From a virus (lineage: Duplodnaviria; Caudoviricetes), in IMG/VR virus record IMGVR_UViG_3300036944_000989, positions 1 through 56,772 of that record: DNA of 56,772 bases; one strand, written 5' to 3'. The stretch's first letter is position 1; each line of letters starts with the position of its first letter. The notes under the pieces were generated by a model. The model had not been told where the DNA came from, ran no database searches, and saw only the letters and a program-made list of their open reading frames with translations. Made by a program: the position numbers and the translations under genes. Positions 39,361 through 45,357 of the stretch are shown here, piece after piece.

Positions 39361-39510
39361 ATGGCAAAATTAAAATCAACACAATCAAGTACATTTACTC
39401 CAAAACCTAAAGTAAAAAGACCAGGTATTCATAGTAAAAAATCTACTAGTAAATTAAAATCTAGTAAAAATTATCAAAAAAAATATGTTGGACAAGGATC
39501 AAAAAGATAA
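39361..39510 (+). CDS. Small basic protein (49 aa), absent from the ORF track
   Basis: Hand translation: MAKLKSTQSSTFTPKPKVKRPGIHSKKSTSKLKSSKNYQKKYVGQGSKR; preceded by an A-rich leader. Confidence 0.65.
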   Translation: MAKLKSTQSSTFTPKPKVKRPGIHSKKSTSKLKSSKNYQKKYVGQGSKR

Positions 39511-40069
39511 ATATTATGTTTATTTACATAGAAAAAAAGATACTCATCAAATTTTTTATGTAGGAAAAGGTAAAGATAGAAGACATTTATCTAGATCTGG
39601 TAGAAATTTACATTGGAAAAATACAGTTTTAAAACATGATTATTATTCTGTAAAAGTTCAAGAATTTTTATCAGAAGAAAATGCTTTAGAACTTGAAGAA
39701 TTTTTAATTCAAGAAATTGGACTATCAAATTTATGTAATAAAAATTATTTTAATGGTGGTAAGAGTGGTTATAATCATTCAGAAAATTCTAAATTAAAAA
39801 TGAGTATTTCTAAAAAAGGTCATATTCCTTGGAATAAAGGAAAATCATGTCCAGAATCTTCTATTAGAATGAAAGGTGTACGTAATCCTATGTTTGGAAA
39901 AAAGAAAATTCATAGTAAAAAAACTATAGAATGTTTAATAATAAAAAATGGAACACCTACTTGTGATTTATTTACAGGAATTTTTTATGATTCTTTAGAA
40001 GATATGTCACGTGCATTAAATATTGGTAGAAAAACTAGAGAATTTAAAAATAGAGCATATAGAGAATAA
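39485..40069 (+). CDS. Free-standing GIY-YIG homing endonuclease with NUMOD3-like DNA-binding motifs
   Basis: YYVYLH...FYVGKG...R, A..LE..LI, HSENSKLKMS, PWNKGK and NPMFGK. Confidence 0.8.
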   Translation: MLDKDQKDKYYVYLHRKKDTHQIFYVGKGKDRRHLSRSGRNLHWKNTVLKHDYYSVKVQEFLSEENALELEEFLIQEIGLSNLCNKNYFNGGKSGYNHSENSKLKMSISKKGHIPWNKGKSCPESSIRMKGVRNPMFGKKKIHSKKTIECLIIKNGTPTCDLFTGIFYDSLEDMSRALNIGRKTREFKNRAYRE

Positions 40070-41707: not shown

Positions 41708-42151
41708 ATGAAAACGTACTTGATGAGTATTTTCACAGGACTAATTCTATTTTTTGCTCCTATACAAGGATTGGTATTATCAGTAGGAATAGCAATCATG
41801 TTTGACACCTTCACAGGTATCTATAAATCTCTCAAATTACATGGATGGGGATCCATTCGTAGTAGAAAATTATCAAACATAATAAGTAAAATGTTATTGT
41901 ACGAAGGTGCAATTATATTCTTGTATCCTGTAGATAAATTTTTACTAAATGATTTGTTTTTAAACGTCGTTTCAGTTCCATTTTTTTCTACTAAACTGGC
42001 ATGTGTTTTATTAGTATTAGTAGAGCTTACGTCAATAAAGGAAAACATAGAAGCAGCACTTAATATAAACATTTGGAAAGTTTTAAAAAACCTAATTAAC
42101 AGAGCAAAAGAAATATCACAAGATGTTGATGATATAAAAAATCCTAACTAA
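41708..42151 (+). CDS. Phage holin (holin_4-like)
   Basis: Three hydrophobic segments; DTFTG...S.KL...K; ELTSIKENI signature. Confidence 0.8.
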   Translation: MKTYLMSIFTGLILFFAPIQGLVLSVGIAIMFDTFTGIYKSLKLHGWGSIRSRKLSNIISKMLLYEGAIIFLYPVDKFLLNDLFLNVVSVPFFSTKLACVLLVLVELTSIKENIEAALNINIWKVLKNLINRAKEISQDVDDIKNPN

Positions 42152-42159
42152 TATATACT

Positions 42160-42549
42160 ATGGATAATCTAGAAGGATTTATTCCAAAATTTTTAAAAGG
42201 AGGATGGATTGTTACGTTAATAGGTGCTGCAGGAATGATAGCAAGATTAGCTGTATCTGAAGAACAGAATGCTATGAATACAATAATCAAGAACATATCT
42301 GCTGCAATGATTGCATCTAGTATTTCTTGGTTTATATTAGAACAATTTGAAATTAATTCAATGATTAAGGCAGTCACATATGGACTTGTTGGATTAAATT
42401 CACCTGAAATATTAAAAGGAATAACAAAAATATCAACTAGTTTTTCTGATGATCCTGCAAAGTTTATATCTAATGCAAAAAAAGGAAAAATTACACCAAC
42501 AAAAAAAGTAGTTAAAAAGAAACCAGTACAAAGAAAAACCACCAAGTAA
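42160..42549 (+). CDS. Membrane protein (3 TM, K-rich tail), holin-like
   Basis: Three hydrophobic segments and a KKVVKKKPVQRKTTK tail; stop/start overlap with the next gene. Confidence 0.6.
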   Translation: MDNLEGFIPKFLKGGWIVTLIGAAGMIARLAVSEEQNAMNTIIKNISAAMIASSISWFILEQFEINSMIKAVTYGLVGLNSPEILKGITKISTSFSDDPAKFISNAKKGKITPTKKVVKKKPVQRKTTK

Positions 42550-43250
42550 TGAACAAAAATGTTTCATTAATAATATTAACAAGTATAATGCTATCTGTTG
42601 CAATCTATGGTAAATGGATTGAAAAGAAAATAGCAGAAAATGCAAGAGCTATTGTTGAAGATAGATTAAAACCTCAACCATGGTTATCAAAAGCTTTTGA
42701 TTATTATGGTACACCAATAGAAGCAAACTTTGTAAATAAAGAATTTTCAGTTGACAAGTTAAAAGAAAATATTGATTATATAAAAGATTGGCGTAAATCA
42801 AGAGATAGTGTTTGGTCTGCATATCTTGCTACCGAAATGGTACCAGAAGAACAAAAACTTATTGATAAAATAAATGAAGATACAAAAGATGTTGACGCTA
42901 TTATTGATGATATTATACAAGATGTTGAAAATGATAAAAACTCGGAAGAAGTAACTTCAATTATTAAATCAGGTGTTATAGAAAAAAAGATAACACCAAT
43001 TATGGACAATATAAATTTACTAATTAACTTACAATCTAGTGAAGGAGAAAAACTAGCAAATGAAACAAAAGTTATAATGTATACTTTCTCAAATTTTATG
43101 ATAGGAGTATTATCATTATCTTTTATCCTATTAGGTACACTAGTATATGATTTTATAAAAACAAAAAGAGAAGCAACTAAACCTGTAAGAAAAACAAGAA
43201 AACCAGCAACAAAAAAACCAGTTAAACGTACAACAACTAAAAAGAAATAG
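42549..43250 (+). CDS. Two-TM protein with a periplasmic 4-helix-bundle chemoreceptor-type sensor domain and no output domain
   Basis: TM1, then IVEDRLKP ... WSAYLATEMVPEEQKL ... I..LINLQ, then TM2 and a K-rich tail. The pattern resembles 4HB_MCP_1. Confidence 0.65.
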   Translation: MNKNVSLIILTSIMLSVAIYGKWIEKKIAENARAIVEDRLKPQPWLSKAFDYYGTPIEANFVNKEFSVDKLKENIDYIKDWRKSRDSVWSAYLATEMVPEEQKLIDKINEDTKDVDAIIDDIIQDVENDKNSEEVTSIIKSGVIEKKITPIMDNINLLINLQSSEGEKLANETKVIMYTFSNFMIGVLSLSFILLGTLVYDFIKTKREATKPVRKTRKPATKKPVKRTTTKKK

Positions 43251-43252
43251 TT

Positions 43253-43510
43253 ATGGGATTTTTTAGAGAATTAGTAAGTGATAATAATTCAATAGATGAG
43301 AAAGCATTTGTTGGAGTTATTTCATTTTTTGCAATGGTTTTTACTTTACTTGTAGACGTAATTACAGGTATCTATGGAAAAGAGTTAGTTATTAAACAAT
43401 TTATCTTTGATGGATTTATGACTCTTACAATGATCTGTTTTGGTATTGCTACAGCAGGTAAAGTATTTAGTATGAACAAACAAAAAAAAGAACAAGATGC
43501 AACTGAGTAA
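43253..43510 (+). CDS. Small 2-TM holin-like protein
   Basis: Two TM segments; overlaps the endolysin start. Confidence 0.6.
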   Translation: MGFFRELVSDNNSIDEKAFVGVISFFAMVFTLLVDVITGIYGKELVIKQFIFDGFMTLTMICFGIATAGKVFSMNKQKKEQDATE

Positions 43511-43964
43511 ACATTTATCATTAGCTGAAGTTACAAGAAGTGATTCAGCAAAAAGAAATGGAATAAGCAATGAGCCTACTCCAGCACACTTAGAAAACTT
43601 TAAGTTACTAGCTGAAAAAGTATTTGAACCTATTAGAGAACACTTCAAAGTTCCTATTCATATATCTAGTGGATATAGAAGTGCTGCTTTAAACAAGAAG
43701 ATAGGTGGATCACTTACATCACAACATTGTTCTGGTGAAGCAATTGATATCGACATGGATGGTAGTGCAAGTGGTGTTACCAATAAGCAAGTTTTTGATT
43801 TCATTAAGCAACATTTAAACTTTGATCAGCTCATTTGGGAATTTGGTACAGATTCCAACCCTGACTGGGTTCACGTATCATACGAATCAACTGGTAAACA
43901 ACGTAAGCAAGTTTTGAAAGCAATTAAACAAGGTGGAAAAACAAGTTATGTACCATATAAGTAA
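43497..43964 (+). CDS. Endolysin, peptidase M15 (Zn) family
   Basis: ISSGYRS..LN..IGGS.TSQH..GEAIDID ... FDQLIWEF ... WVHVSY. Confidence 0.9.
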   Translation: MQLSKHLSLAEVTRSDSAKRNGISNEPTPAHLENFKLLAEKVFEPIREHFKVPIHISSGYRSAALNKKIGGSLTSQHCSGEAIDIDMDGSASGVTNKQVFDFIKQHLNFDQLIWEFGTDSNPDWVHVSYESTGKQRKQVLKAIKQGGKTSYVPYK

Positions 43965-44283
43965 GTTCATAAAACAACAATGGTTAGGAACCATCTTAAT
44001 TGTATTATTTATTCTGTTCTTGGTTTATGGAATAGGAAAGAATAGTGACTTACAAAAAGAAAAACAACGTCTTGAAAAAGAGATTGAAGTGCTTGAGCAA
44101 AAAGAAGAACTACACTGGAATAAACTAGATAGTTTAAAAGTTAGCGAAAACACTATAATCAAAAAGGAAAAAATATTAATACAGATACAACATGACACAA
44201 TTAAGATTATTGATACTATGTCTGTTAGTGAGCTTCAAAAGTATTTCACAAACAGATACAATAAAAAAGATAGTATTAGATGA
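43948..44283 (+). CDS. Putative inner-membrane spanin
   Basis: N-terminal TM followed by a coiled coil, directly after the endolysin; ATG at 43948 is the more likely start. Confidence 0.6.
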   Translation: MYHISKFIKQQWLGTILIVLFILFLVYGIGKNSDLQKEKQRLEKEIEVLEQKEELHWNKLDSLKVSENTIIKKEKILIQIQHDTIKIIDTMSVSELQKYFTNRYNKKDSIR

Positions 44284-44659
44284 AAGAGTTGGTAGAGAAG
44301 TTGTCAAAGACCTTGTAAGAGGTGATGTTTGTAGACAACTTTTAAGTCTTGCTCAAGAAAAAAACGAGATACTTAAAAAACAAAACATTGAGTTATACTC
44401 AATAATAGCAATTAAAGACAGCATCATCTCTAAAAAAGATGATATAATTACTACACAAGACAAAGCATTAGGATGGTGGAAAAAACCTGAACTTCATGGA
44501 TACTTAGGAGTTCAGACTATAAACGCTAGTATAGTTAATCCTTGTCTATATGGAACTCTGTTAGTTCAGTTTCCTAAATTTAGTGTAGGTGGTCAGTATT
44601 TTGTACAACCAAACAATCCATCAGGATACGGATTCATTGTTGAATATAACTTATTTTAA
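44192..44659 (+). CDS. Putative outer-membrane spanin partner (signal peptide, coiled coil, C-terminal beta-strands)
   Basis: Overlaps the i-spanin 3' end in another frame; ends GYGFIVEYNLF. Confidence 0.55.
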   Translation: MTQLRLLILCLLVSFKSISQTDTIKKIVLDERVGREVVKDLVRGDVCRQLLSLAQEKNEILKKQNIELYSIIAIKDSIISKKDDIITTQDKALGWWKKPELHGYLGVQTINASIVNPCLYGTLLVQFPKFSVGGQYFVQPNNPSGYGFIVEYNLF

Positions 44660-44670
44660 AATATAATAAA

Positions 44671-45357
44671 ATGATAAATTTTGGAGTTCCCCCAAGTTAT
44701 TTTGATCAGTTGCTTATCAACTTTAGATCATGGTTAGTTAGAAACTACCAAGCATTACTTATAAGTGGTACTAATATTAAAACCATAAATGGTAATTCTG
44801 TATTAGGTTCAGGTGATTTAACTGTATCAGGTGCAGGTTTTACACTTATAGATAATACATCAATAGGTACTAATATAACAGGCACTACTAGTCAAACTGT
44901 ATTACATAGTAGAAGATTAGCTCCTGGTACAAATGGTAATAACTTTTTTAAAGGTGCTATTGAAGGTATATTAAGTATACAATTACATATAAAAATGTCT
45001 GTTGCAGCAGGTGTAGACAGTAATGTATATAAAATTTATTTTAATAGAGTCGCTAATTTAACAGGAACACCTACTCTACTTGCAACAACTCCTCCAGTAG
45101 GTTCAGATGGTAGTGAATTTTATTGTATTAAAAGAACATTAACTAGTACAACAACCCAAATAAATTTATTTGATCCATCAGGAGAAAGTTTAAATGATGA
45201 ATTTGATCCTGCTTTTTTATCAAGTCCTACTATTTCTTCAAGTGTTTCAACAGATTCTGCTCATTCTAGTGATTTTTTCATAATAGTAACTGTAACTCCT
45301 TCAAATATTGCTAATAACGCAGTTTTAAGATCTTCAAGAATTATATTATATGCATAA
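44671..45357 (+). CDS. Fibre-like structural protein
   Basis: LISGTNIKTINGNSVLGSGDL fibre motif followed by a beta-rich domain. Confidence 0.55.
   Translation: MINFGVPPSYFDQLLINFRSWLVRNYQALLISGTNIKTINGNSVLGSGDLTVSGAGFTLIDNTSIGTNITGTTSQTVLHSRRLAPGTNGNNFFKGAIEGILSIQLHIKMSVAAGVDSNVYKIYFNRVANLTGTPTLLATTPPVGSDGSEFYCIKRTLTSTTTQINLFDPSGESLNDEFDPAFLSSPTISSSVSTDSAHSSDFFIIVTVTPSNIANNAVLRSSRIILYA

What the first reader, a model, noticed from the sequence alone, without database searches (positions are those of the whole stretch)
42160..43250. Orphan chemoreceptor-type 4-helix-bundle sensor and a coupled 3-TM partner inside the lysis cassette
Seen: the 233-aa protein reads TM1, IVEDRLKP, WSAYLATEMVPEEQKL, I..LINLQ, TM2, which resembles the 4HB_MCP_1 periplasmic ligand-binding pattern. 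After TM2 there is only a K-rich tail, with no HAMP, kinase or MCP domain. It overlaps the upstream 3-TM gene, which has a similar tail (KKPVQRKTTK versus KKPVKRTTTKKK), and the pair lies between two holin-like genes. Inference: a sensor-gated lysis-timing device, functionally analogous to T4 RI/T lysis inhibition but using a captured bacterial sensory domain. A superinfection-exclusion or receptor-decoy role is an alternative.
Basis: partly seen in the sequence, partly recalled or inferred. Interest (0 to 1): 0.75.

Follow-up and report, generated by a model that had tools for sequence, protein, structure and literature searches.

The report
Sensor-domain partner of a phage holin
An uncultured phage carries, next to its cell-bursting genes, a membrane protein built from a bacterial chemical-sensor domain that is always paired with a holin-like protein, which suggests, but does not prove, that these phages time lysis by sensing something outside the cytoplasm.

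Summary
The 233-aa ORF (42549-43250) reads TM1, four-helix bundle, TM2, polybasic tail. It matches Pfam 4HB_MCP_1 above threshold (E 1.5e-11, 44.7 bits against a cutoff of 27). Its AF2 model (pLDDT 83.9) aligns best with chemoreceptor and kinase sensor domains (VIA Z up to 15.4). A profile of its family finds MCPs and PAS histidine kinases at their N-termini. No HAMP, MCP or kinase domain is present.

The upstream 129-aa gene is itself the holin-like one: 21 of 21 family members match phrog_6384 'holin', and 13 of 21 give sub-threshold LydA-holin matches. The two genes are inseparable. All 80 viral loci found with the sensor have the partner directly upstream. Of 80 loci found with the partner, 77 have the sensor directly downstream, and the other 3 are cut at the contig end.

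All 31 loci with 3 kb or more on both sides carry an endolysin, of five unrelated types.

Best reading, at about 50%: a periplasm-facing regulatory subunit of a holin that signals through TM2. Sensing and timing remain untested. I found no cultured-phage relative and no paper.

The parts
41708..42151 (+). 147-aa Phage_holin_4_1-type holin. It is an accessory member of the cassette in this phage group.
   Evidence: Pfam PF05105 at 9.2e-8, above cutoff. NCBIfam holin_1 at 3.6e-8, below its cutoff. An HMM of this type finds it in 7 of 31 full-flank related loci.
42160..42549 (+). 129-aa holin-superfamily-III-like membrane protein ('tm129'). It has two Gly/Ala/Ser-rich TM segments (residues 14-32 and 42-60), an invariant YGLVGLNSPE region and a polybasic C-terminal tail. 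It is the obligate upstream partner of the sensor protein.
   Evidence: phrog_6384 'holin' at 9.1e-5 for the window protein and in 21 of 21 family members (best 3.4e-8). phrog_785 'holin' in 12 of 21. Pfam Phage_holin_3_3 (LydA) in 13 of 21, best 6.1e-5, sub-threshold. Atlas look-alikes are holin clusters. Hydropathy. Invariant columns.
42549..43250 (+). 233-aa 4HB_MCP_1-fold protein ('s233'), whole gene. Its start overlaps the stop of the 129-aa gene by 1 nt.
42564..42620 (+). TM1 of s233 (residues 6-24).
   Evidence: Hydropathy. It forms one continuous helix with alpha1 in the model (H3-40). Mean column identity is 0.69 for residues 1-24 (N-terminus plus TM1).
42621..43076 (+). Periplasmic four-helix bundle of s233 (residues 25-176). 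Helices run to 61, then 68-93, 99-127, 132-141, and from 143 on.
   Evidence: AF2 pLDDT is 82-95 per 10-residue block over this range. VIA Z is 15.4 to 12.9 against MCP2201, Vc1313 and HK9 sensor domains. Foldseek TMt is 0.81 to Vc1313-LBD. The Pfam match covers 5-175.
43077..43157 (+). TM2 of s233 (residues 177-203), with the phage-specific conserved motif F-S-N-F-M-I-G.
   Evidence: Hydropathy. F180, F183 and L190 are invariant; M184 and G186 are nearly so. Mean column identity is 0.67. The cellular homologues' TM2 is not conserved at these positions.
43158..43247 (+). Polybasic, disordered cytoplasmic tail of s233 (residues 204-233).
   Evidence: pLDDT is below 50 for residues 211-233. The tail is K/R-rich with 0-2 acidic residues in the rows where it could be isolated, across the family.
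43253..43510 (+). 85-aa protein with two TM segments and a charged C-terminus ('p85'), holin-like in shape. It is a constant member of the cassette.
   Evidence: TM segments at 19-37 and 50-68. No Pfam, PHROG or NCBIfam match at significance. The atlas finds only viral hypothetical proteins. A family HMM finds it in 31 of 31 full-flank loci.
43497..43964 (+). 155-aa Peptidase_M15_3 endolysin with no hydrophobic N-terminus.
   Evidence: Pfam 6.5e-20 and phrog_894 endolysin 1.1e-37. No TM segment.
43933..44283 (+). 116-aa protein with an N-terminal TM and a coiled-coil region. It is an i-spanin candidate.
   Evidence: phrog_1026 Rz-like spanin at 6.5e-5. TM at 17-35. It overlaps the next gene by 92 nt.
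44192..44659 (+). 155-aa secreted protein, a candidate outer-membrane partner of the 116-aa protein. In related phages its place in the cassette is taken by a small beta-barrel gene.
   Evidence: Hydrophobic N-terminus. No family match. A family HMM finds it in 11 of 31 full-flank loci. It or the beta-barrel 'c3' is present in 31 of 31.

Best explanation
The 233-aa protein is a phage-adapted copy of the N-terminal sensor module of bacterial chemoreceptors and sensor kinases: TM1, periplasmic four-helix bundle, TM2. Everything after TM2 has been replaced by a short polybasic tail.

It is made together with a holin-superfamily-III-like protein from the gene just upstream; the stop and start codons overlap or nearly touch. 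Together with an 85-aa 2-TM protein, an outer-membrane protein and an interchangeable endolysin, the pair forms the fixed core of a lysis cassette in a broad group of low-GC uncultured phages.

Most likely mechanism (inferred, not shown): the protein is a regulatory subunit of that holin, antiholin-like or a timing modulator. Its bundle faces the periplasm. The state of the bundle, with or without a ligand, is passed through the conserved TM2 to the holin's TM helices within the membrane. This would delay or trigger hole formation. The basic tails of both proteins lie on the cytoplasmic face, as holin regulatory tails do.

Shown: the fold and homology, the absence of an output domain, the strict gene coupling, the lysis context, and phage-specific conservation of TM2.

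Inferred: physical contact, any ligand, and any effect on lysis timing.
For: 1. Domain identity.
- Pfam 4HB_MCP_1 at 1.5e-11, above cutoff.
- 111 of 119 homologue clusters carry PF12729.
- The AF2 model has pLDDT 83.9 and pTM 0.69, with long TM-continuous helices.
- The top Foldseek rows are chemoreceptor LBDs (Vc1313 TMt 0.81, rmsd about 3 A).
- VIA Z is 15.4-14.1 to MCP2201 LBD at 19-20% identity.
- After its own clade, the family profile hits 540-1420-aa proteins at their N-terminal residues (about 10-230) at E about 1e-17.
- 10 of 10 sampled hits carry 4HB_MCP_1. Four also have PAS and kinase domains, and two have MCPsignal.
- The DRxxP, W..AY..TYL, PEE and DP..D..N.L..LQ signatures are shared with these proteins.

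2. Partner is holin-like.

3. Coupling.
- The partner is directly upstream in all 80 distinct loci found with the sensor (92 of 92 fetched loci, 12 contigs fetched twice).
- The sensor is directly downstream in 77 of 80 loci found with the partner. The other 3 loci end 1-24 nt after the partner gene.
- Gene gaps are -4 (21 loci), -1 (23), +1 (9), +3 (1), +4 (14) and +5 (6) nt. Three further values (-92 twice, -65 once) come from the longest-ORF start rule.

4. Lysis context. Of 31 loci with 3 kb or more on both sides:
- 29 have an M15, GH19 or phrog_3000-type endolysin.
- The other two have an Amidase_2 gene (L041) and a member of a Phage_lysozyme cluster (L089; the Pfam scan was run on the L083 member of that cluster).
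- p85 is present in 31 of 31.

5. Output through the membrane. TM2 carries an invariant phage-specific motif that cellular relatives lack. The holin-like partner's TM2 (M50, S53, F58, E61-Q62-F63) is invariant too.

6. Both tails are always polybasic. Basic C-termini are a stated holin feature (PMC9025707, passages read).
Against: - There is no experimental or expression evidence.
- No ligand-site analysis was possible, because model coordinates could not be inspected.
- The conserved periplasmic residues are largely the generic signature of the 4HB_MCP_1 family. They could therefore reflect fold maintenance rather than ligand binding.
- Helical bundles score high in structure comparison in general: designed bundles reach Z about 12.
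- The partner is never seen without the sensor protein. That fits an essential structural subunit at least as well as a dispensable regulator. Known antiholins such as T4 RI are dispensable (recalled).
- The holin matches of the partner are PHROG annotations and sub-threshold Pfam hits, not tested function.
- Which of the two or three holin-like genes makes the hole is unknown.
- Only the best 80 of 112 and the best 80 of 145 viral matches were examined, and many contigs are close relatives of each other.
Confidence: 0.5

Rival explanations
1. Structural co-holin. The 233-aa protein and the 129-aa protein form one heteromeric holin. The four-helix bundle serves only as a periplasmic dimerisation or scaffold domain and senses nothing.
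For: - The linkage is strict: 77 of 77 assessable loci and 80 of 80, as expected for two subunits of one machine.
- Both proteins have the TM-plus-basic-tail layout of holins.
- The conserved periplasmic residues are mostly the generic fold signature.
Against: - A 150-residue domain that keeps the full family signature over 34-89% sequence divergence is costly for a mere spacer.
- I recall no known holin with such a domain. Searches for 4HB_MCP with holin found no paper.
- The cassette already holds one or two other holin-like genes.
Confidence: 0.25
2. Envelope-bridging or outer-membrane role. The periplasmic bundle docks onto the co-encoded outer-membrane protein, which is the 8-stranded beta-barrel 'c3' in most relatives and the 155-aa protein here. 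It would then act in the last, spanin-like step of lysis rather than in holin control.
For: - In most distant loci the barrel gene directly follows the sensor gene, with overlapping stop and start.
- c3 or the 155-aa family is present in 31 of 31 full-flank loci.
- c3 is a confident 8-strand barrel (pLDDT 88.4) that resembles Ail, OmpX, NspA and OmpA barrels.
Against: - Both ends of the 233-aa protein sit in the inner membrane, and the bundle is only about 40 residues long per helix. From recalled dimensions this is too short to span a periplasm.
- The window keeps the sensor although it has a separate overlapping Rz-like pair and no c3.
- Some relatives also carry a gene with a lipoprotein-like N-terminus and a C-terminal TM segment, seen by eye.
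Confidence: 0.12
3. Not a lysis protein. It is a superinfection-exclusion factor, receptor decoy or other membrane protein that merely travels with the cassette.
For: Phage membrane proteins of unknown role often sit near lysis genes. There is no direct functional evidence for any lysis role.
Against: - Stop-start overlap with a holin-like gene is seen in essentially all loci.
- The pair is retained while the endolysin type changes five times.
- It was never found in the 185,579 species genomes scanned, so there is no sign of a prophage-expressed exclusion gene.
Confidence: 0.08

Closest known systems
Periplasmic 4HB sensor modules of methyl-accepting chemotaxis proteins and sensor histidine kinases (Pfam 4HB_MCP_1; solved examples MCP2201, Vc1313, PcaY_PP, Tar/Tsr, NarQ)
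   Same: The layout is TM1, antiparallel four-helix bundle, TM2. The profile match is above threshold. The sequence signature is shared. The fold match reaches Z 15.4.
   Different: There is no HAMP, MCPsignal, PAS or kinase domain. Instead there is a 30-residue polybasic tail. TM2 carries a phage-specific invariant motif. The protein is encoded by phages in a lysis cassette.
GlnX of Corynebacterium glutamicum, a membrane protein reported to signal without a classical output domain (PMC9769921; I saw only the search listing and the start of the abstract)
   Same: It is a precedent for a transmembrane signalling protein, in a paper that mentions 4HB_MCP, which passes information by protein contacts rather than through a fused enzymatic domain.
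   Different: It is cellular, has a different architecture and partners (GlnH, PknG), and has no link to lysis. I did not read the details.
Phage P1 lydA-lydB (a holin and its antiholin encoded in one operon)
   Same: A LydA-family-like holin gene sits with a second gene whose product modulates it. LydB delays lysis (PMC9025707, passages read). Sub-threshold LydA-family matches occur in 13 of 21 partner proteins.
   Different: According to that paper, LydB has no predicted TM domain and no homologues of known function. The 233-aa protein has two TMs and a sensor fold. No sequence relation was seen.
T4 RI antiholin with the T holin (lysis inhibition); recalled, not read here
   Same: A periplasm-exposed helical protein that adjusts holin triggering in response to an outside event.
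   Different: RI binds the large periplasmic domain of T. The holin-like partner here has almost no periplasmic part, so any signal must pass within the membrane. No PHROG family of any kind matched the 233-aa protein.
Holin superfamily III (lambda S, P1 LydA, HP1-type holins), for the 129-aa partner
   Same: Small size, TM segments, a basic C-terminal tail and a position in a lysis cassette. Matches to PHROG holin families.
   Different: The Pfam matches stay below the gathering score. Only two clearly hydrophobic segments are seen. It is always followed by the sensor gene.

Membership tests
4HB_MCP_1 sensor domain (PF12729) | Profile match above the curated gathering score | tested here: met
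   44.7 bits against a cutoff of 27, E 1.5e-11, covering profile positions 10-179 of 181. 111 of 119 homologue clusters carry PF12729.
4HB_MCP_1 sensor domain (PF12729) | An antiparallel four-helix bundle flanked by two TM helices that continue helices 1 and 4 | tested here: met
   The AF2 helices are 3-40/42-61, 68-93, 99-127 and 143-209. TM segments are at 6-24 and 185-203.
4HB_MCP_1 sensor domain (PF12729) | Structural similarity to solved 4HB ligand-binding domains | tested here: met
   Foldseek top rows are Vc1313, Tsr, Tar and MCP2201. VIA Z is 15.4-12.9 with rmsd 2.3-2.8 A over 129-155 residues. Caveat: designed bundles reach Z about 12.
4HB_MCP_1 sensor domain (PF12729) | Reciprocal homology: the family's own profile finds cellular members | tested here: met
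   1036 hits at E<=1e-3. The first non-family tier, at about 1e-17, consists of MCPs and kinases matched at their N-termini. 10 of 10 sampled hits carry PF12729.
4HB_MCP_1 sensor domain (PF12729) | Binds a small-molecule ligand | not testable with these tools
Methyl-accepting chemotaxis protein or sensor kinase (whole receptor) | A cytoplasmic HAMP plus MCPsignal domain, or a HisKA/HATPase output domain | tested here: not met
   No such Pfam match at E up to 1. Only about 30 disordered residues follow TM2. No longer family member appears in the length-unrestricted search.
Holin (the 129-aa partner) | A small membrane protein with TM segments and a charged, basic C-terminus, encoded beside an endolysin | tested here: met
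   The endolysin lies 948 nt downstream of the gene's end.
Holin (the 129-aa partner) | Match to a described holin family | tested here: inconclusive
   phrog_6384 'holin' in 21 of 21 members (best 3.4e-8). Pfam Phage_holin_3_3 in 13 of 21, but best E is 6.1e-5 and below the gathering score. No NCBIfam match.
Holin (the 129-aa partner) | Forms lethal membrane holes that release endolysin | not testable with these tools
   This needs expression experiments.
Antiholin of the T4 RI or P1 LydB kind (the 233-aa protein) | Sequence or architectural relation to a known antiholin | tested here: not met
   No PHROG family matched at E<=0.1. LydB has no TM domain (PMC9025707), whereas this protein has two.
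Antiholin (functional class) | Delays holin triggering | not testable with these tools
   This needs lysis curves.
i-spanin (the 233-aa protein) | A single N-terminal TM with a free periplasmic C-terminus that reaches the o-spanin | tested here: not met
   It has two TM segments, and the C-terminus is cytoplasmic and basic. A separate Rz-like candidate exists at 43933-44283.

The most novel reading that the evidence does not exclude
These phages gate a holin with a genuine periplasmic ligand sensor taken from a bacterial receptor. A chemical or envelope cue would be read by the four-helix bundle. Candidates are superinfection, cell-wall fragments or an environmental metabolite. The signal would pass through TM2 directly to the holin in the membrane. 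Lysis time would then be set by outside information, without any kinase or second messenger.
Probability: 0.3. Interest if true: 0.85.

Novelty: new variant of a known kind. Interest (0 to 1): 0.66.

Why it matters
Holin timing is usually explained by holin concentration and membrane potential. T4 lysis inhibition is the main known case where outside information is used.

A sensor module wired straight to a holin would be a second and mechanistically different way for a phage to decide when to burst its host. It would be the shortest known output path for a 4HB sensor: transmembrane helix to transmembrane helix.

The family is widespread in uncultured low-GC phages: 112 and 145 matches in IMG/VR for the two genes. 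It is absent from PHROGs, from the cultured-phage records searched, and from the paper searches listed under Tried and rejected.

The conserved five-part cassette also gives a working annotation for lysis genes in phages where they are poorly known. These phages probably infect Bacteroidota.

Tried and rejected
- tblastn of the 233-aa protein against 50,697 cultured-phage records found no match at E<=0.01.
- blastn of the cassette gave one 101-nt match, inside the endolysin gene, to Flavobacterium phage MaF61.
- A PDB sequence search with the family profile gave nothing meaningful; the best E was 0.43.
- A scan of 185,579 species genomes with the family alignment found no relative. The method depends on two peptide patterns, so absence is not proven.
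- BFVD fold search gave one hit at E<=0.001, a fragment labelled 4HB MCP from an 'ssRNA phage' record. No characterised viral protein appeared.
- Complex prediction on the 233-aa protein (residues 1-212) with the 129-aa protein (residues 1-112) gave no verdict: score 0.00 in two runs, and the controls were not run. This is evidence neither for nor against binding.
- A possible relation between the beta-barrel 'c3' and the window's 155-aa protein: hhalign probability was 26%, so it is not supported. The c3 HMM finds nothing in the window.
- Fusion forms of the two genes: none among the 119 homologues of 133-272 aa, nor in the length-unrestricted search.
- Promoter and terminator scans were uninformative: 22 promoter-like sites against 28.8 expected.
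- Paper searches:
  - 'antiholin' + 'four-helix bundle' + 'periplasmic' + 'phage': 0 papers.
  - '4HB_MCP' + 'holin': 0 papers.
  - '4HB_MCP' + 'bacteriophage' + 'lysis': 1 paper, unrelated to phage lysis.
- Considered and rejected: a chance or compositional Pfam hit. It is rejected by the reciprocal search and the fold.
Full report
**Setting.** The window is an IMG/VR virus record of 56,772 bp, estimated 47% complete, with GC near 30%. It carries a family-B-type DNA polymerase (phrog_1252), a primase and an exonuclease on the minus strand. Very large ORFs, up to 4012 aa, lie on the plus strand. Earlier first-reader notes call it crAss-like; I did not test that.

From 41708 to 44659 the plus strand holds a tightly packed gene row:
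- 147 aa: Phage_holin_4_1;
- 129 aa;
- 233 aa;
- 85 aa;
- 155 aa: Peptidase_M15_3 endolysin;
- 116 aa: Rz-like spanin match;
- 155 aa: secreted, with no family match.

The 233-aa protein has hydrophobic segments at 6-24 and 185-203. Its tail is K/R/P/T-rich. It has no HAMP, MCPsignal or kinase match at E up to 1. It matches 4HB_MCP_1 at 1.5e-11, 44.7 bits against a gathering score of 27, over nearly the whole profile.

The one weak point is the '3-TM' label for the 129-aa protein. Hydropathy shows two Gly/Ala/Ser-rich segments (14-32 and 42-60) and no third one above threshold.

**Is it really a 4HB sensor module?** Four independent lines say yes.
- Of 119 homologue clusters (133-272 aa, all from metagenomes), 111 carry PF12729.
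- The AF2 model built on 31 homologues has pLDDT 83.9 and pTM 0.69. It shows TM1 continuous with helix 1, two shorter helices, and helix 4 continuous with TM2.
- Structure comparison puts chemoreceptor and kinase sensor domains on top.
  - Foldseek: Vc1313-LBD with TMt 0.81 and rmsd about 3 A, then Tsr, Tar, MCP2201, Adeh_2942 and NarQ. E-values are only 4.5e-3 and weaker.
  - VIA-align: Z 15.4-14.1 for MCP2201 at 19-20% identity, and Z 12.9 for Vc1313.
  - Designed helical bundles also reach Z about 12, so the fold match alone would be weak.
- A profile of the family was searched against 1.84 billion representatives. It finds its own clade (11 hits at E<=1e-30) and then, from about 1e-17, proteins of 540-1420 aa matched at their N-terminal residues (about 10-230). 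Of ten I scanned, all carry 4HB_MCP_1. Four add PAS and histidine-kinase domains and two add MCPsignal. The other four, of 200-267 aa, show the sensor domain only and may be fragments.

An alignment with these cellular proteins shows that the phage family keeps their signature: DRxxP after TM1, W..AY..TYL, PEE, and DP..D..N.L..LQ.

One of the three best cellular hits is encoded, at 100% identity, in a Bacteroidetes MAG. It has a full-length 36% relative in Pedobacter. This fits capture from a Bacteroidota kinase, but it is a single data point.

**What differs from the cellular modules.** After TM2 there are only about 30 disordered residues, rich in Lys, Arg, Pro and Thr.

TM2 itself carries an invariant motif: F180, F183 and L190, with M184 and G186 nearly invariant. 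The cellular relatives lack it.

By region, TM1 with helix 1 (0.68-0.69) and TM2 (0.67) are the best conserved parts. Helices 2 and 3 and the tip are the least conserved (0.49-0.52).

**The partner.** The 129-aa protein matches phrog_6384 'holin' (9.1e-5) and phrog_21870. Across 21 family members:
- 21 match phrog_6384 (best 3.4e-8);
- 12 match phrog_785 'holin';
- 13 give sub-threshold matches to Pfam Phage_holin_3_3, the LydA family (best 6.1e-5).

Language-model look-alikes are clusters named holin, or clusters carrying Phage_holin_3_3 or 3_1 on a minority of members.

The family is strongly conserved, with 31 invariant columns. These include GGW.V..IG..GM.AR, M..S....F..EQF and YG..GLNSPE.

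**Coupling.** With the sensor alignment, IMG/VR gave 112 relatives, of which the best 80 loci were kept. The partner lies directly upstream in every one: 92 of 92 fetched loci, 12 contigs having been fetched twice.

With the partner alignment, IMG/VR gave 145 relatives, of which 80 were kept. The sensor lies directly downstream in 77. The remaining three loci end 1-24 nt after the partner gene.

Gene gaps are -4, -1 or +1 to +5 nt in 74 of the 77. The other three values come from my longest-ORF start rule.

The unexamined 32 and 65 weaker matches are a caveat.

**Context.** I clustered the neighbours and built HMMs for the recurrent ones. Among the 31 loci with at least 3 kb on both sides of the pair:
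- the 85-aa 2-TM family is present in 31;
- an M15, GH19 (phrog_181) or phrog_3000-type endolysin is present in 29;
- a 144-aa gene ('c3') or the window's 155-aa family is present in 31 (24 and 11 loci respectively, with 4 carrying both);
- Phage_holin_4_1 is present in 7.

The two loci without a listed endolysin still have one. L041 has an Amidase_2 gene. L089 has a member of a cluster whose L083 representative is Phage_lysozyme.

So the pair stays while the endolysin changes among five enzyme types. Extra holins, Phage_holin_4_1 and Phage_holin_10, come and go.

These loci include close relatives of each other, so they are not 31 independent events.

The contigs range from a few kb to 322 kb and have median GC 0.32.

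**The neighbour c3.** In most distant loci c3 follows the sensor gene with overlapping stop and start. It folds with pLDDT 88.4 into a signal helix plus eight strands. It resembles the small outer-membrane barrels Ail, OmpX, NspA and OmpA. It has no Pfam, PHROG or NCBIfam match.

The window has no c3. In its place are the overlapping 116-aa and 155-aa genes.

**Reading.** The data show a fixed lysis module. It comprises a small 2-TM protein, a holin-superfamily-III-like protein, a sensor-fold protein, an outer-membrane protein and an endolysin.

For the sensor-fold protein I commit to a regulatory subunit of the holin, at confidence about 0.5.
- The bundle faces the periplasm.
- There is no enzymatic output.
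- The only conserved features specific to the phage clade are TM2 and the basic tail.
- The partner has almost no periplasmic exposure.

Any information must therefore pass helix to helix in the membrane. This would use the kind of small TM2 displacement that chemoreceptors use, which I recall rather than tested.

Basic C-terminal tails are a stated holin feature (PMC9025707, passages read).

The same paper describes P1 LydA with its antiholin LydB encoded in one operon. It states that LydB has no TM domain and no known homologues. The parallel is therefore one of gene arrangement and role, not of family.

**Rivals.**
- A non-sensing structural co-holin (0.25). The strict linkage fits this at least as well.
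- A role at the outer membrane together with c3 or the 155-aa protein (0.12).
- A non-lysis membrane function (0.08).

Ligand binding, contact between the two proteins and any timing effect are untested. The one complex prediction gave no verdict and is reported only under Tried and rejected.

**Novelty.**
- The 233-aa family has no PHROG.
- It has no match in 50,697 cultured-phage records.
- It has no relative in 185,579 species genomes by a pattern-limited scan.
- Where a source names it at all, the name is almost always 'hypothetical protein', once 'uncharacterized membrane protein'.
- Three paper searches that combined 4HB_MCP, or antiholin with four-helix bundle, with phage lysis terms found nothing relevant.

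I rate it a new variant of a known kind: a holin-associated membrane partner built from a captured bacterial sensor module.

Noticed in passing
Related loci, e.g. L041:5651-6085, L052:5603-6037, L036:5714-6154; absent from the window: A 144-155-aa phage gene ('c3') lies directly after the sensor gene in most distant relatives. It folds as a signal peptide plus an 8-stranded outer-membrane beta-barrel (pLDDT 88.4) resembling Ail, OmpX and NspA, and most copies end in ...NKDF. It has no Pfam, PHROG or NCBIfam match. It may be an outer-membrane lysis factor.
   Followed up: partly
window 43933-44283 and 44192-44659: This overlapping gene pair (92-nt overlap) looks like Rz/Rz1-type spanins. However, the 155-aa product has no obvious lipobox. 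By eye it shows a helical middle and a beta-rich C-terminus ending in ...EYNLF, so it may anchor in the outer membrane as a beta structure rather than as a lipoprotein.
   Followed up: partly
Related loci, e.g. L080:1843-2280 and L078:35-472: A 145-aa gene just upstream of the module in 8 loci has a lipoprotein-like N-terminus (..LFLCSC..) and a C-terminal TM segment. From recall, this is the layout of a unimolecular spanin. Pfam gives only weak, unrelated hits.
   Followed up: no
Related loci, e.g. L044:7-177: A 56-aa Phage_holin_10 (Pam3 gp28 family, 3.3e-16) gene lies upstream of the module in 4 loci. These cassettes therefore stack several holin families.
   Followed up: no
window 39485-40069: A 194-aa ORF has a GIY-YIG-like N-terminus (YVYLHRKK...IFYVGKG), read by eye. 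Weak relatives (1e-5 to 2e-4) sit near the lysis module in 4 related loci. It is possibly a homing endonuclease. No family scan was run on it.
   Followed up: no
window 44671-45357: A 228-aa ORF directly after the lysis genes matches phrog_16348 (unknown function, 2.1e-6) over residues 26-76 only. It has no Pfam match and its role is unknown.
   Followed up: no
Related loci, e.g. L035:7164-8708 and L036:1482-3116: A GroEL-like gene of about 514-544 aa (judged by eye from the sequence, not scanned) lies within a few kb of the lysis module in about 10 loci.
   Followed up: no
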